DNA from: Dehalococcoidia bacterium
GTDB taxonomy: Bacteria; Chloroflexota; Dehalococcoidia; UBA2979
Assembly: GCA_965219085.1 (NCBI GenBank)
Contig: OZ244720.1
Location: 2,208,001-2,272,000 of the forward strand
Length of the DNA: 64,000 bases
Direction: 5' to 3'
Shown: piece after piece, positions 36,707-39,548 of the stretch
Layout of the letters: each line of letters begins with the position of its first letter
Position numbering within the stretch: the first letter of the stretch is position 1
Position numbers and translations under genes: made by a program
The notes under the pieces: model-generated
Database searches by the model: none
What the model was told of the DNA's origin: nothing
The model's input: only the letters and a program-made list of their open reading frames with translations

Positions 36707-37443
36707 GCTGCCCCCAGGATCCGTCGCCGCTGGCAATGAGTCTAGCTGGGTGCTGAAAAAGGCGCGGCCATCTGGCAGGATAGCGAAGGCGGCGGGGGCG
36801 TAGCCTGGGAGGCAGCCCCGTGCGAGGCGACGCTGAGCGTCAGACCAACATGTTGCTGGCGGTGACGCCGGACTCCTTCATCCCGGACGACCACCCGATC
36901 CGACGCATCAAACCGATCGTCGATGCCGCGCTGCAGCGGCTCTCGCCGCTGTTCGGCACGATGTACGCAACGAGCGGGCGGCCCTCGATCCCGCCCGAGC
37001 ACCTGCTCAAGGCGAGCCTGCTGATCGCGCTCTACTCGGTGCGCAGCGAGCGCCAGTTCTGCGAGCGGCTGCGCTACGACCTGCTCTTCAAGTGGTTCTT
37101 GGACCTCAACATCTCAGACGCGCCGTTCGACGCCTCGAGCTTCTCGAAGAACCGCGAGCGCCTGCTCGCAGCCGATGTCGCGCGCGCCTTCTTCGCCGAG
37201 GTGGTGGCCGAGGCAAAGCGCCGCCGGCTGCTCTCCGCCGAGCACTTCACGGTGGACGGGACGCTGCTCGAGGCCTGGGCCTCGCTCAAGAGCTACCGCC
37301 CGCGCGACGAGCAGGAGCCACCCCTGGGCGGACGCAACCCGGATGTCGACTTCCGCGGGCGGCGGCGCAGCCGCGATACGCATGTTTCTGCGACCGACCC
37401 GGAGGCGCGGCTGTACACGAAGACACCCCAGGACGCTAAGGGG

Positions 37444-38667
37444 TCAAGCAGCGAGGTCCTCGTGGGTGTAACGGTGTCCCCAGGCGGTCGTCTCGTCGTA
37501 GGGCAAGCGGCGCTTCAGGCAGCCATGTAGGTAGCCGACGAGACGGTTGCCGAGGGCGCGGAGCGCCTGGTGGTGGAGGTCGCCCGCGGCGCGCCGCCGA
37601 TCGTAGAACTCGCGGCAGCCGGGGCTGGCCTGCAGGGAGCACAGCGCCCACTGGTCGACTGCGTCGTAGAGGCGCCGGTTGCGGACGAAGCGGGCTTTCA
37701 CGGTGTGCTTGCGGCCGGATGCTACCGTCAGCGGCGACGTGCCGGCGTAGTTCCTGCGGGACTTCGCCGACTCGTAGCGTTCGGGGTCATCCCCGAACTC
37801 GCCAAGCACCCGGGCGCCGAGGACCACGCCGAGACCGGGCAGGGAACGGTAGATACCGGCGTCCGGGTGCTGCTCAAAATGGCTCGCGAGCTCGGCCTCG
37901 AGCTCCTTGATCTGACGGTTGATCTCGCCGATCACCCTCATTGCCGCACTGGTGCTCGCGGCGAATGCCTTGCTCACCGCGGGCGGAGCCTCGAGCTGCG
38001 GTGAGCGCAGCGCGTCGCGGACCTCGGCGGCGCGCCGCTCGATGTTGCGCCGGCGGCCGCCGCGGCGCAGCGCGGAGCGGATCTGGGTGATGCTCAGCCG
38101 CGCCGCCTCGCGCGGGCCAGGCGCTGTCGCCAGCACGCCCACCGCGTCGTCGTGCGCGAGGTCGGGGAAGGCCTCCAGCGCACCCGGAAAGTACTCCCTG
38201 AGCGCGTTGCGCAGCCGGTTGGTCTGGCGGACGCGGTCCCAGATCAACTGCTGGTGGGCGCGGGCGAGGATGCGCACCGCGGCGGCTTCGTCGCTGTCGC
38301 CGGCGACCTCCCGGTGGTTGTGCCGGTCGGTGCGGACGAGGTCGGCGAGCAGCTTCGCGTCGCCGGCGTCGGACTTGGCGCCGCCGACGTGGTGGCGGTC
38401 GCGGTAACGCGACGCCGAGCGCGGGTTGATGGCGTAGACGTGGTAGCCGGCCGCGAGCAGTGCCGCGACCCAGGGGCCGCGGTCCGTCTCGATGCCGACG
38501 ATCACCTCACCCGGCCCTGAGGCGTACCCGGCGACCAGTCCGTGCAGGGCAGTGATGCCCTCCACCCCTTCGGGCAGACGCCGGGCGGCGAGCCGCTCGC
38601 CCGCGTCGTTCATGAGATGGACGTCGTGGTGGTCTTCGGACCAGTCATCGCCCAGGTACAAGGCCAT
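37444..38667 (-). CDS. IS110 family recombinase (DEDD RuvC-like plus Tnp domain)
   Basis: LGDDWSEDHHD, GIE, KSDAGDA, LPGLG, YAGTSP...ASG. Confidence 0.93.
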   Translation of the reverse strand: MALYLGDDWSEDHHDVHLMNDAGERLAARRLPEGVEGITALHGLVAGYASGPGEVIVGIETDRGPWVAALLAAGYHVYAINPRSASRYRDRHHVGGAKSDAGDAKLLADLVRTDRHNHREVAGDSDEAAAVRILARAHQQLIWDRVRQTNRLRNALREYFPGALEAFPDLAHDDAVGVLATAPGPREAARLSITQIRSALRRGGRRRNIERRAAEVRDALRSPQLEAPPAVSKAFAASTSAAMRVIGEINRQIKELEAELASHFEQHPDAGIYRSLPGLGVVLGARVLGEFGDDPERYESAKSRRNYAGTSPLTVASGRKHTVKARFVRNRRLYDAVDQWALCSLQASPGCREFYDRRRAAGDLHHQALRALGNRLVGYLHGCLKRRLPYDETTAWGHRYTHEDLAA

Positions 38668-38679
38668 CGTGTTTCAGTT

Positions 38680-38910
38680 CCTCTCCCGCTTCGCGCTGCT
38701 CGGTGCGACCCGGCGGGTTGGTTCCTGCGACGGCCTAATGGATCAGTGCTCGATGGCACGACACCCCATGAGTGCTGCAGAACAACCCGGAATACCAGCA
38801 GGGGCTCGGTCTTCGTGAAGCGGTCCAGAAGCCGCAGGGATCAGCTGAGAGCTCACCGGCTGGCAGGGTCCAGAACCAGTCTGCCAGAGAACCTCTGGCC
38901 GCTGGTCGGG
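38680..38910 (-). ncRNA. Putative IS110 bridge RNA (ends approximate)
   Basis: Contains target guides GATCCCT (38836-38842) and CACGAAG (38811-38817) and donor guides TGGGGTGTC (38760-38768) and CCATTAG (38735-38741); each pair flanks a small stem. Confidence 0.8.
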
Positions 38911-39548
38911 CCCCATTAGGGGTCGGGGCAGACGGCGAAGCTCAGCTACATGGGCCATCTGCTCACCGAGAACCGTCACGGTCTGGTGCTGGACGTGGAG
39001 TTGGCCGAGGCGAACGGGTACGCCGAGCGCGAGGCGGCGGTCACGATGCTGGAGCGCAGCGTGAGCGGCTGCGGGACGCTGGGCGCCGACCGCGGCTACG
39101 ACACGCGCGGCTTCGTGGCGGCGCTGCGCGCTCGCGGCGTGACGCCGCACGTGGCGCAAAACGACCGCCGCCGCCGCAGCGCCGTGGATGGGCGCACCAC
39201 GCGGCATCGCGGCTACAGGCAGAGTCAGAAGCGGCGCAAGATCGTGGAGCAGGTCTTCGGCTGGATGAAGACCGTGGGCGGCGGGCGCAAGCTGCGCTTC
39301 GTGGGCCGCGAGCGCAACCGCTGTTGGCTGGAGCTCACCGCCGCCGCCTACAACCTCGTGCGCATGGCCACGCTCGAGACCGCCGCGGCGTAGGCGCAGT
39401 GCGCCCTCCGCCCCGCCAGGGAGCCCTCAGAGGCGCCCGGGGGCAGGTCAGGAGGCCACGATCACGAACCCGGAGGCGGCTTCAAGCCGCCTCTCGCCAC
39501 TCCGAGACCCCGGAAGGCGCTTCTTCAGCAGCCTGCTAGCATGGCTCC

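What the first reader, a model, noticed from the sequence alone, without database searches (positions are those of the whole stretch)
37411..38935. IS110 with a fully readable bridge RNA whose guides match its actual target and donor
Restoring the IS5 frame gives the target (element orientation) CCGACCC-CT-TCGTG and the circle junction CTGGGGTGT-CT-AATGG. The non-coding end upstream of the recombinase holds GATCCCT (6/7 to GACCCCT, wobble-compatible) and CACGAAG (exact reverse complement of CTTCGTG) around a GCGG/CCGC stem. It then holds TGGGGTGTC (exact donor left) and CCATTAG (exact reverse complement of CTAATGG) around a GTGC/GCAC stem. This is the two-loop bridge-RNA architecture with CT core described for IS621, here with a longer 407-aa recombinase, so it is a candidate new programmable recombinase.
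Basis: partly seen in the sequence, partly recalled or inferred. Interest (0 to 1): 0.82.

Follow-up and report, generated by a model that had tools for sequence, protein, structure and literature searches.

The report
IS110 insertion sequence with bridge RNA
A 1.5-kb IS110-type mobile element carries, upstream of its recombinase gene, a two-loop guide RNA whose loops match the element's own ends and the site where it landed; it is a clear new example of the known bridge-RNA system, not a new kind of system.

Summary
Window 37423..38919 (minus strand) is a 1497-bp IS110-group element. It has a 252-nt left end, a 407-aa DEDD+Ser recombinase and a 21-nt right end, and it sits inside an IS5-like transposase gene.

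The genome holds six near-identical copies. Five are at CCGACCC-CT-TCGTG in diverged IS5 copies and one is at GGGATCT-CT-TCGTG elsewhere. Eight IS5 copies that differ at three guide-covered positions are empty.

Across 80 related loci the first loop changes together with the insertion site: 144 of 180 guide positions match, against a permuted mean of 69.9, and 0 of 100,000 permutations reach the observed value. The loop-flanking stems show compensatory changes. One donor-guide change is mirrored in the right end.

The recombinase passes NCBIfam's "IS110 family RNA-guided transposase" cutoff, and its catalytic residues align with IS621.

Caveats:
- The left target guide matches only 7/9 and 6/9, which is not above chance on its own.
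- Transcription and activity are inferred, not shown.
- 407 aa lies inside the published 300-460 aa range.

Verdict: a real, probably active, new member of a known kind.

The parts
36742..39539 (+). Host IS5-like element (DUF772 + DDE_Tnp_1 transposase), split by the IS110 insertion between 37422 and 38920
   Evidence: Pfam hits on both halves. BLAST of the flanks joined in a script against the genome gives about 1301-bp copies.
38920..38926 (-). Left target (LT) CCGACCC, directly upstream of the element
37423..38919 (-). IS110-group element, 1497 bp, counting one copy of the CT core (38918..38919)
   Evidence: Six copies with 0-3 differences over about 1500 nt, ending at these bases. None of the 25 longest inverted-repeat pairs joins the two termini.
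38913..38919 (-). Core CT plus right donor (RD) AATGG at the left-end terminus
   Evidence: Columns 1-8 (CTAATGGG) are invariant in 24 of 24 aligned left ends.
38875..38906 (-). 5' stem-loop of the predicted bridge RNA (ACCAG..CTGGT, GCCAGAG..CTCTGGC)
   Evidence: helix 1 is 96.5% paired across 24 sequences. Helix 2 is only 66%, where the alignment is uncertain.
38794..38864 (-). Target-binding loop (TBL) with its outer stem (38849..38864 paired with 38794..38808)
   Evidence: RNAalifold and pair counts: the 14-bp outer helix is 98.2% paired and 4 pairs change on both sides.
38836..38844 (-). Left target guide CUGAUCCCU, same sense as the top strand, directly 5' of the inner hairpin
   Evidence: The register is fixed by the family. 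Over the whole 9-nt guide it matches 7/9 to the IS5 site and 6/9 to the second site; one search scores the 7 non-core positions at 5/7 and 4/7.
38820..38835 (-). TBL inner hairpin GCGG-CUUCUGGA-CCGC
   Evidence: The 4-bp helix is 99% paired and 3 of 4 pairs change on both sides.
38811..38817 (-). Right target guide CACGAAG, the reverse complement of CT+TCGTG
   Evidence: 5/5 non-core matches at all six copies.
38809..38810 (-). Candidate TBL handshake guide AC, complementary to donor positions 6-7 (GT)
   Evidence: Position and rule taken from Hiraizumi et al. passages. Sequence. This is an inference.
38715..38788 (-). Donor-binding loop (DBL) with its outer stem (38774..38788 paired with 38715..38734)
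   Evidence: Constrained folds of 24 relatives show an outer stem in most of them, with different sequences in different clades. In about 6 the fold pairs the invariant GCAC/GUGC differently, and L088 shows no such stem.
38760..38768 (-). Left donor guide UGGGGUGUC, equal to the last 8 nt of the right end plus core C
   Evidence: Actinobacterial relatives have UGGGAUGUC together with a right end CTGGGATGT-CT.
38746..38759 (-). DBL inner hairpin GUGC-CAUCGA-GCAC
   Evidence: Invariant in 24 of 24 sequences.
38735..38741 (-). Right donor guide CCAUUAG, the reverse complement of CT+AATGG
   Evidence: RNAalifold even pairs it with the left-end terminus.
38733..38734 (-). Candidate DBL handshake guide GC. 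The G is complementary to target position 7 (C).
   Evidence: L085 and L086 carry C here and have G at target position 7. This is an inference.
37444..38667 (-). Recombinase gene, 407 aa. D8, E60, D100, D103 and S317-G318 align with IS621 D11, E60, D102, D105 and S241-G242.
   Evidence: Pfam PF01548 at 2.7e-37 and PF02371 at 4.1e-11. NF033542 at 191.6 bits against a cutoff of 140. Alignment to 8wt6.
37423..37443 (-). Right end, 21 nt after the stop codon, ending in the left donor CTGGGGTGT (37423..37431)
37442..37447 (-). TTGACC, a -35-like hexamer. It would lie 18 nt upstream of TCTAAT only in the circular right-end/left-end junction.
   Evidence: TTGACN at 17-19 nt in 77 of 80 elements with both ends. 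This is an inference: the -10 lacks the A at position 2.
37416..37422 (-). Second core copy CT (37421..37422) plus right target TCGTG

Best explanation
This is an intact and probably recently active IS110-group insertion sequence that uses a bridge RNA encoded in its left end.

**Proposed mechanism, by analogy with IS621 (inferred).** The element excises as a circle. The joined right end and left end place a conserved TTGAC -35-like box 18 nt upstream of TCTAAT, and an RNA of about 200 nt is transcribed from the left end. This RNA folds into a 5' stem-loop and two internal loops.
- The second loop (UGGGGUGUC / CCAUUAG) pairs in the same way with the element's own joined ends.
- All four guides include the CT core.
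- A tetramer of the 407-aa DEDD+Ser recombinase then exchanges strands at CT and inserts the element.

In this genome the guides direct it to one site in an IS5-family transposase gene.

**Shown here.** Element boundaries, copy identity, guide complementarity, guide-site covariation across relatives, stem covariation and catalytic-residue conservation.

**Inferred.** Transcription, the promoter, RNA-protein binding and the chemistry.
For: 1. **Anatomy matches the published rules.** The left end is long (252 nt) and the right end short (21 nt). The variable loop comes first and the conserved loop second. [quoted passage not shown] The core is included in every guide (Durrant et al. passages).
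2. **Site use within the genome.** There are six copies with 0-3 differences over about 1500 nt. Five lie at CCGACCC-CT-TCGTG in IS5 copies and one at GGGATCT-CT-TCGTG outside IS5. All eight IS5 copies without the insertion differ at three guide-covered positions: CCGCTCC-CT-TTGTG in seven and CCGAACC-CT-TCTTG in one.
3. **Insertions are independent.** The window copy and the copy at C1:3089035 have 0 of 1499 differences in the IS110, but 32 of 368 in the adjoining IS5.
4. **Family covariation.** I examined 86 elements and 74 had both ends under the strict pattern. These give 21 distinct first loops and 15 distinct guide pairs. 144 of 180 non-core positions match their own site, against a permuted mean of 69.9 and a maximum of 113; 0 of 100,000 permutations reach the observed value. 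58 of 74 insertions have LT >=5/7 and RT >=4/5. Among guide-site pairs with a different RTG, 0 of 844 do. Three actinobacterial types added later also fit (L083 6/7 and 5/5; L084 7/7 and 4/5; L078 type 6/7 at L078 and 5/5 at L079), though other copies of the L078 type fit less well: L081 3/7 LT, L080 3/5 RT.
5. **RNA structure.** The TBL outer helix is 98.2% paired and the inner helix 99%, both with compensatory changes. For the whole structure, 0 of 500 shuffles reach the observed value on four of the five measures (1 of 500 on pair types), and it beats slid partners. A DBL outer stem appears in most of the 24 relatives with clade-specific sequences.
6. **Donor covariation.** LDG UGGGAUGUC occurs together with the right end CTGGGATGT-CT in the actinobacterial relatives.
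7. **Protein.** PF01548 plus PF02371. NF033542 'IS110 family RNA-guided transposase' is above its cutoff. The DEDD residues and Ser-Gly align with IS621.
8. **No terminal inverted repeat** appears among the 25 longest pairs.
Against: - The LTG matches its two natural sites only 7/9 and 6/9. A 6/7 match occurs in 10,156 of 20,000 shuffles.
- Five further sites in the genome fit GA[CT]C[CT]CTTCGTG and are empty. One is the exact 12-mer of the IS5 site, inside a tetrapyrrole-methylase/HemD gene. The match is therefore not sufficient, or insertion there is selected against.
- Some relatives misfit: L086 (LT 4/7, RT 2/5), L053 (LTG out of register by one), L035 (LT 1/7), and L010/L034 (RT 3/5).
- Three of the five IS5-borne copies have near-identical flanks and may be copies of one composite.
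- The -10-like TCTAAT lacks the A at position 2, which the promoter scanner requires. The scanner finds 0 promoter-like sites in the integrated locus.
- No Rfam family matched the left end.
- Donor covariation rests on one substitution in one clade.
- No RNA, circle or activity data exist for this element.
Confidence: 0.9

Rival explanations
1. The recombinase recognises its site through protein-DNA contacts alone. On this view the left-end matches are chance, or leftovers of past recombination events.
For: The LTG match alone is at chance level. Empty sites exist that match the 12-mer.
Against: All four guides together occur in 0 of 20,000 shuffles. Guides and sites change together in 15 guide pairs, with 0 of 100,000 permutations reaching the observed value. 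The guides sit in internal loops held by covarying stems. The protein family is the one shown experimentally to be RNA-guided.
Confidence: 0.03
2. The element is a bridge-RNA IS, but the five IS5-borne copies arose by spread of one IS5::IS110 composite or by duplication. The in-genome pattern would then say little about targeting.
For: Three copies (C1:1202645, 1801611, 3276658) have flanks with 0-1 differences in 365 nt. They share an extra G in the right end and a second insertion at IS5 position 692/693.
Against: The window copy and C1:3089035 have 0 of 1499 differences in the IS110 but 32 of 368 in the flanks. The window copy against the trio has 1-2 differences against 8-9. A sixth copy lies outside IS5 at a site with the same right half. 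This leaves at least three independent IS5 hits plus one other.
Confidence: 0.05
3. The element is a recent fossil. Its copies are young, but the RNA or the recombinase no longer works, for example because the LTG has drifted away from its site.
For: The LTG is imperfect against both natural sites. No circle junction was seen (see Tried and rejected).
Against: The ORF is intact and all catalytic residues are present. The six copies differ by at most 3 positions, and every matching IS5 site is filled. Durrant et al. report zero to two mismatches between natural guides and sites in most cases.
Confidence: 0.05

Closest known systems
IS621 (E. coli) bridge recombinase and bridge RNA (Durrant et al. 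2024, PMC11208160; Hiraizumi et al. 2024, PMC11208158; PDB 8wt6)
   Same: Bridge RNA encoded in the left end, with a 5' stem-loop, a variable target loop and then a conserved donor loop. The 5' guides pair with the bottom strand and the 3' guides with the top strand. CT core. Handshake-type dinucleotides follow the RTG and RDG. DEDD plus Ser-Gly catalytic residues. Long left end and short right end. A promoter-like pair of hexamers forms only at the circle junction.
   Different: Distant in sequence: phmmer E 5.6e-08, with only two aligned stretches. It is about 80 aa longer, with the extra residues between the RuvC and Tnp domains (query 158-251 against chain 160-174). High G+C. The 5' side of the first loop is 13 nt here against 11 nt in the other 20 loop types of its own clade. 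The natural site is a transposase gene of another IS. Nothing has been tested experimentally.
Relatives in Dehalococcoidia and Actinomycetota genomes (loci L009-L088, 66-86% aa identity)
   Same: Same element plan, the same donor ends (CT-AATGG ... GGGGTGT-CT or GGGATGT-CT), and the same donor loop.
   Different: Their first loops differ. Most target a repeated palindrome-like sequence (CCCTCACCCCCGCC-CT-CTCCCGCGAGGG). The window element is retargeted to an IS5 gene. Its nearest left-end relative, L009, differs in the RTG (AAUGAAG against CACGAAG), with the matching site change TCATG against TCGTG.
IS1111 group of the IS110 family
   Same: Same recombinase family and the same RNA-guided principle.
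   Different: IS1111 elements have a long right end carrying the RNA and subterminal inverted repeats of 7-17 bp. Here the right end is 21 nt and no such repeats are seen. A different element with those features sits elsewhere in the same IS5 family.
Classical actinobacterial IS110-family elements such as IS110 of Streptomyces and IS900 of Mycobacterium (recalled from memory, from no call)
   Same: Recombinases of about 400 aa, high G+C hosts, and site-specific insertion without inverted repeats.
   Different: They were not compared here.

Membership tests
IS110 family, IS110 group (bridge-RNA elements) | N-terminal RuvC-like DEDD domain with the four acidic residues | tested here: met
   PF01548 at 2.7e-37. 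D8, E60, D100 and D103 align with IS621 D11, E60, D102 and D105.
IS110 family, IS110 group (bridge-RNA elements) | C-terminal Tnp domain with the conserved Ser-Gly | tested here: met
   PF02371 at 4.1e-11. S317-G318 in VASGRK aligns with ESG of IS621.
IS110 family, IS110 group (bridge-RNA elements) | Curated family model for the whole protein | tested here: met
   NF033542 'IS110 family RNA-guided transposase', 191.6 bits against a cutoff of 140.
IS110 family, IS110 group (bridge-RNA elements) | No terminal inverted repeats; only the core dinucleotide is present at both junctions | tested here: met
   CT is at both junctions in six of six copies. None of the 25 longest inverted-repeat pairs joins the termini.
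IS110 family, IS110 group (bridge-RNA elements) | Left non-coding end much longer than the right end | tested here: met
   252 nt against 21 nt. The rule comes from Durrant et al..
IS110 family, IS110 group (bridge-RNA elements) | Left-end RNA with a 5' stem-loop and two stem-loops with internal loops, the first variable and the second conserved | tested here: met
   The description comes from Durrant et al..
IS110 family, IS110 group (bridge-RNA elements) | First-loop guides complementary to the insertion site and covarying with it | tested here: met
   144 of 180 positions, with 0 of 100,000 permutations reaching that value. 58 of 74 insertions pass, against 0 of 844 controls with a different RTG. 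In the window element itself the LTG matches only 7/9.
IS110 family, IS110 group (bridge-RNA elements) | Second-loop guides complementary to the joined element ends | tested here: met
   LDG 9/9 and RDG 7/7. One covarying change is seen in relatives.
IS110 family, IS110 group (bridge-RNA elements) | [quoted passage not shown] | tested here: inconclusive
   TTGACN lies 17-19 nt upstream of TCTAAT in 77 of 80 elements. However, the -10 lacks A at position 2 and TTGAC overlaps the stop codon. There are no transcript data.
IS110 family, IS110 group (bridge-RNA elements) | RNA bound by the recombinase; RNA-dependent and reprogrammable recombination | not testable with these tools
   This needs biochemistry or a plasmid assay.
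IS1111 group | Long right end carrying the RNA, and subterminal inverted repeats of 7-17 bp | tested here: not met
   The right end is 21 nt and no subterminal repeats are seen.

The most novel reading that the evidence does not exclude
The element may be a parasite of another mobile element.
- Its target guides have been retuned from the repeat-type sites used by most relatives to a coding site in an IS5 transposase.
- A second, unrelated IS110-family element hits another site in the same IS5 family.
- The only IS5 copies that remain intact at the site differ at three guide-covered bases, two of them synonymous.

On this reading, there is an RNA-guided arms race between insertion sequences within one genome, with target-site escape by the IS5. 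The same pattern is also expected from plain survivorship, since matching sites are simply filled. It is therefore not shown.
Probability: 0.15. Interest if true: 0.5.

Novelty: new member of a known kind. Interest (0 to 1): 0.3.

Why it matters
It adds a well-documented, high-G+C, distant orthologue from an uncultured lineage to the bridge-recombinase family. Its nearest relatives are Dehalococcoidia metagenome-assembled genomes.

The genome also provides a natural specificity experiment. Every IS5 copy with the matching site is occupied (five of five), and every copy with three changes at the site is empty (eight of eight).

The clade supplies at least 15 natural guide pairs on an almost constant donor loop. 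That makes it a useful comparative set for mismatch tolerance, for example insertions where only one half of the site matches. For genome annotation, it explains why this IS5 gene is split. It does not change what is known about the mechanism.

Tried and rejected
- **Rfam.** No bridge-RNA family reached E<=10 on 37000..39400. The only hit above its gathering score is Ms_AS-4, antisense to the recombinase gene.
- **Single-sequence fold of the left end.** z = -0.24. The minimum-free-energy fold does not recover the first loop and is uninformative on its own.
- **RNAalifold.** It recovered the first-loop stems and the second-loop inner stem. It paired the left-end terminus with the RDG, which is the guide-donor complementarity itself, and missed the 5' stem-loop and the second-loop outer stem. 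My hand-drawn outer stem of the second loop scored only 59-80% paired on the MAFFT alignment. Per-sequence constrained folds show that this is a register problem in the alignment.
- **83% relative in the same genome (C1:893433-894622, L007).** It lacks the donor loop and a start codon and abuts an IS5 end, so it gave no guide test.
- **Sequencing runs.** Only assembled contigs were available. No joint of the 'goes back' kind, which would indicate a circle junction, was listed. One contig of X1 skips 37383 to 38924 (side 28, letters between not known). This fits an uninterrupted IS5 relative and is not evidence of excision. Contigs from two metatranscriptome runs (X21, X22), mostly 90-99% alike, cover parts of the recombinase gene and of the left end (about 38727..38920). 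Their loose ends run into other flanks, so they come from relatives, and DNA carry-over cannot be excluded. This is not counted as evidence of transcription.
- **Promoter scan of the integrated locus.** 0 sites.
- **The search of earlier findings.** No earlier notes were seen.
- **Supplementary files.** They are closed, so I could not check whether this orthologue is already in the Durrant et al. database of IS110 elements.
- **Literature.** 'IS110' with 'Dehalococcoidia' returned 0 papers.
- **Not used.** No structure prediction, complex prediction or large protein-database search was run, because none would change the verdict.

**Papers.**
- PMC11208160: passages only.
- PMC11208158: passages only.
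- 10.64898/2026.08.31.748434: abstract and outline.
- 10.1101/2025.05.14.653916: passages.
- All other titles: search listing only.
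Full report
**What is there.** Window 37423..38919 (minus strand) interrupts an IS5-like transposase gene, with DUF772 upstream and DDE_Tnp_1 downstream. Removing it restores the frame ...LYTK|GSGQTAKLSYMGH....

In element orientation the insert has these parts:
- It starts with CT-AATGG.
- A 252-nt non-coding left end.
- A 407-aa ORF (37444..38667).
- A 21-nt right end finishing in CTGGGGTGT, followed by CT-TCGTG of the host.

CT is present at both junctions. None of the 25 longest inverted-repeat pairs joins the termini.

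The protein has the DEDD_Tnp_IS110 and Transposase_20 domains. It passes NCBIfam NF033542, 'IS110 family RNA-guided transposase', at 191.6 bits against a cutoff of 140. It aligns with IS621 (PDB 8wt6, E 5.6e-08) so that D8, E60, D100, D103 and S317-G318 fall on IS621 D11, E60, D102, D105 and S241-G242. The extra length of about 80 aa lies between the two domains.

All are present where stated:

| String | Window position (minus strand) |
|---|---|
| GATCCCT | 38836..38842 |
| GCGG...CCGC hairpin | 38820..38835 |
| CACGAAG | 38811..38817 |
| TGGGGTGTC | 38760..38768 |
| GTGC...GCAC hairpin | 38746..38759 |
| CCATTAG | 38735..38741 |

Their arrangement is the one published for IS621. The first internal loop is for the target and the second for the donor. 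[quoted passage not shown] The 3' side is the reverse complement (4-7 nt). The core is included in all four guides (Durrant et al., passages).

In 20,000 dinucleotide shuffles of the left end, the exact RTG, LDG and RDG occur in 432, 24 and 50 shuffles, and all four strings together in 0. A 6/7 LTG match occurs in 10,156, so that match taken alone means nothing.

**Copies in the same genome.** The 3.3-Mb genome has six copies that differ from one another by at most 3 positions in about 1500. Five lie at the same position of IS5 copies (CCGACCC-CT-TCGTG). The sixth lies elsewhere at GGGATCT-CT-TCGTG.

The mismatch is a U:G wobble for the IS5 site and a C:A mismatch for the other. The RTG is perfect for both.

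Eight IS5 copies lack the insertion. Seven read CCGCTCC-CT-TTGTG and one reads CCGAACC-CT-TCTTG, which is three changes within the guide-covered bases.

The insertions are not one amplified composite. The window copy and the copy at C1:3089035 are identical over 1499 nt, while their IS5 flanks differ at 32 of 368 positions. The window copy differs from a trio of copies at 1-2 positions in the IS110 and at 8-9 of 365 in the flanks. The trio itself (0-1 flank differences, a shared extra G in the right end, a shared second insertion) may be one event. I therefore count at least three independent hits on the IS5 site plus one elsewhere.

Against strict sufficiency, five other sites fit GA[CT]C[CT]CTTCGTG and are empty. 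One is the exact 12-mer, inside a tetrapyrrole-methylase/HemD gene, where an insertion would probably be lost.

**Relatives.** A scan of species-representative genomes returned 80 loci (the best of 251 confirmed) at 66-86% identity. Most are Dehalococcoidia metagenome-assembled genomes and some are Actinomycetota.
- Of 86 elements (80 loci plus the six own copies), 74 had both ends under a strict pattern. With a relaxed pattern, 80 did.
- The donor ends and the second loop are almost constant. The first loop is not: there are 21 distinct first loops.
- I fixed the register from the conserved hairpin. The LTG is the 9 nt before the inner stem and the RTG is the 7 nt before A[CT]CG. On that register the 15 distinct guide pairs match their own consensus sites at 144 of 180 non-core positions (LT 77 of 105, RT 67 of 75). 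Permuted pairings average 69.9 with a maximum of 113, and 0 of 100,000 reach the observed value.
- Per insertion, 58 of 74 have LT >=5/7 and RT >=4/5. Among non-cognate pairs, 73 of 1036 pass, all between types that share an RTG, and 0 of 844 pass when the RTG differs.
- Misfits: L086 (4/7, 2/5), L053 (guide one base out of register), L035 (1/7), and L010 and L034 (RT 3/5 with a good left half). The last pattern recalls the 'half-match' insertions described for IS621 (abstract read).
- The three actinobacterial types that the strict pattern had dropped also fit: L083 6/7 and 5/5; L084 7/7 and 4/5; the L078 type 6/7 at L078 and 5/5 at L079. Other copies of the L078 type fit less well (L081 3/7 LT, L080 3/5 RT). 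These types have LDG UGGGAUGUC with a right end CTGGGATGT-CT, against UGGGGUGUC with CTGGGGTGT-CT in the rest. This is the one donor-side covariation found.

**RNA structure.** Results below are from an alignment of 24 distinct left ends (A1).
- The outer helix of the first loop (14 bp) is 98.2% paired, with 4 pairs changed on both sides.
- The inner helix of the first loop (4 bp) is 99% paired, with 3 such pairs.
- The inner helix of the second loop is invariant.
- For the whole structure, 0 of 500 column shuffles reach the observed value on four of the five measures, and 1 of 500 does on pair types. It also exceeds partners slid by 1-3 columns.
- Per-sequence constrained folds show a long outer stem around the second loop in most of the 24 sequences, with clade-specific sequences.

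**Finer points (inference).**
- *First-loop handshake.* The two bases after the RTG (AC) are complementary to donor positions 6-7 (GT). Hiraizumi et al. call this the handshake guide of the target loop.
- *Second-loop handshake.* The base after the RDG is G in 22 of 24 aligned left ends and C in L085 and L086. By my reading of the table, target position 7 is C in 69 of 74 insertions and G in exactly those two.
- *Junction promoter.* In the circular junction, a TTGACN hexamer of the right end would lie 17-19 nt upstream of TCTAAT, which is formed by the last right-end base, the core and the first left-end bases. This holds in 77 of 80 elements. It parallels the junction promoter of IS621. However, the -10 lacks the A at position 2, TTGAC overlaps the stop codon, and the scanner sees nothing in the integrated locus.

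**What it is and how new.** The element is a member of the IS110 group of the IS110 family and has a bridge RNA. Every defining feature that sequence alone can test is met. RNA expression, RNA-protein binding and reprogrammability cannot be tested here.

It is not of the IS1111 type, because the right end is short and there are no subterminal repeats.

The size of 407 aa is within the published range of 300-460 aa. Bridge RNAs were already predicted in thousands of orthologues, and 72 orthologues have been screened in human cells. This is therefore a new member of a known kind.

I could not check whether it is already in the published element tables, because supplements are closed. A search for IS110 together with Dehalococcoidia found no paper.

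**Most novel reading not excluded.** The element, together with a second IS110-family element that hits another site of the same IS5 family, may act as an RNA-guided parasite of IS5. On that view the surviving IS5 copies are target-site escapes. The same pattern follows from simple filling of all matching sites, so I give this reading about 15%.

Noticed in passing
G000:C1:1799941-1801478, 1204275-1205812, 3274984-3276521, 340399-341911, 1971386-1973834 (parts lie in L004, L005, L006); not in the window's IS5 copy: A second, distantly related IS110-family element sits in five IS5 copies at IS5 position 692/693 (CTCAAGAG|...|AGCTACC). It is about 1.5 kb and about 30% identical over about 100 aa. 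It has subterminal inverted repeats CATGAGGGCCGGTC / GACCGTCCCTCATAG and a longer right end, which looks like the IS1111 group. Its own guides were not examined.
   Followed up: partly
window 37762..37843 (+): Rfam Ms_AS-4 (RF02464, 'Actinobacteria sRNA') matches at 63.9 bits, above its gathering score of 50, on the strand antisense to the most conserved part of the recombinase's Tnp domain. This is either a conserved antisense RNA of IS110-type genes or an Rfam family that mirrors protein-coding conservation.
   Followed up: no
L007 (G000:C1:891933-896122), about C1:893240-893400 and 893433-894622: A decayed relative (83% DNA identity). It has no start codon and no donor loop, carries a tandem duplication of about 80 nt upstream, and is cut at its 3' end by an IS5 copy. 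Its upstream region carries the end motif of the IS1111-like element.
   Followed up: partly
L014-L020, L031-L033, L037-L048, L063-L070 and others, about positions 1240-1256 and 2745-2760 of each locus: Most relatives in Dehalococcoidia genomes sit in one repeated, palindrome-like sequence (CCCTCACCCCCGCC-CT-CTCCCGCGAGGG and variants). This suggests a REP-like repeat family that serves as their landing site.
   Followed up: no
L050, about positions 76-1500: One relative has its left-end terminus and donor loop about 1.2 kb further from the start codon than usual. Something has inserted into its left end right after the RDG (CCATTAG).
   Followed up: no
G000:C1:3090781-3092145 and C1:1803545-1805176: Two further insertions occur in IS5 copies that also carry the IS110. 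One is 1365 bp with a 372-aa ORF and the other is 1632 bp with a 507-aa ORF. The IS5 family in this genome is a hotspot of nested insertions.
   Followed up: no
L089 (G000:C1:1836400-1837700), site at C1:1837018: The exact 12-mer of the occupied IS5 site (GACCCCTTCGTG) also occurs once, unoccupied, inside a tetrapyrrole-methylase/HemD fusion gene.
   Followed up: partly
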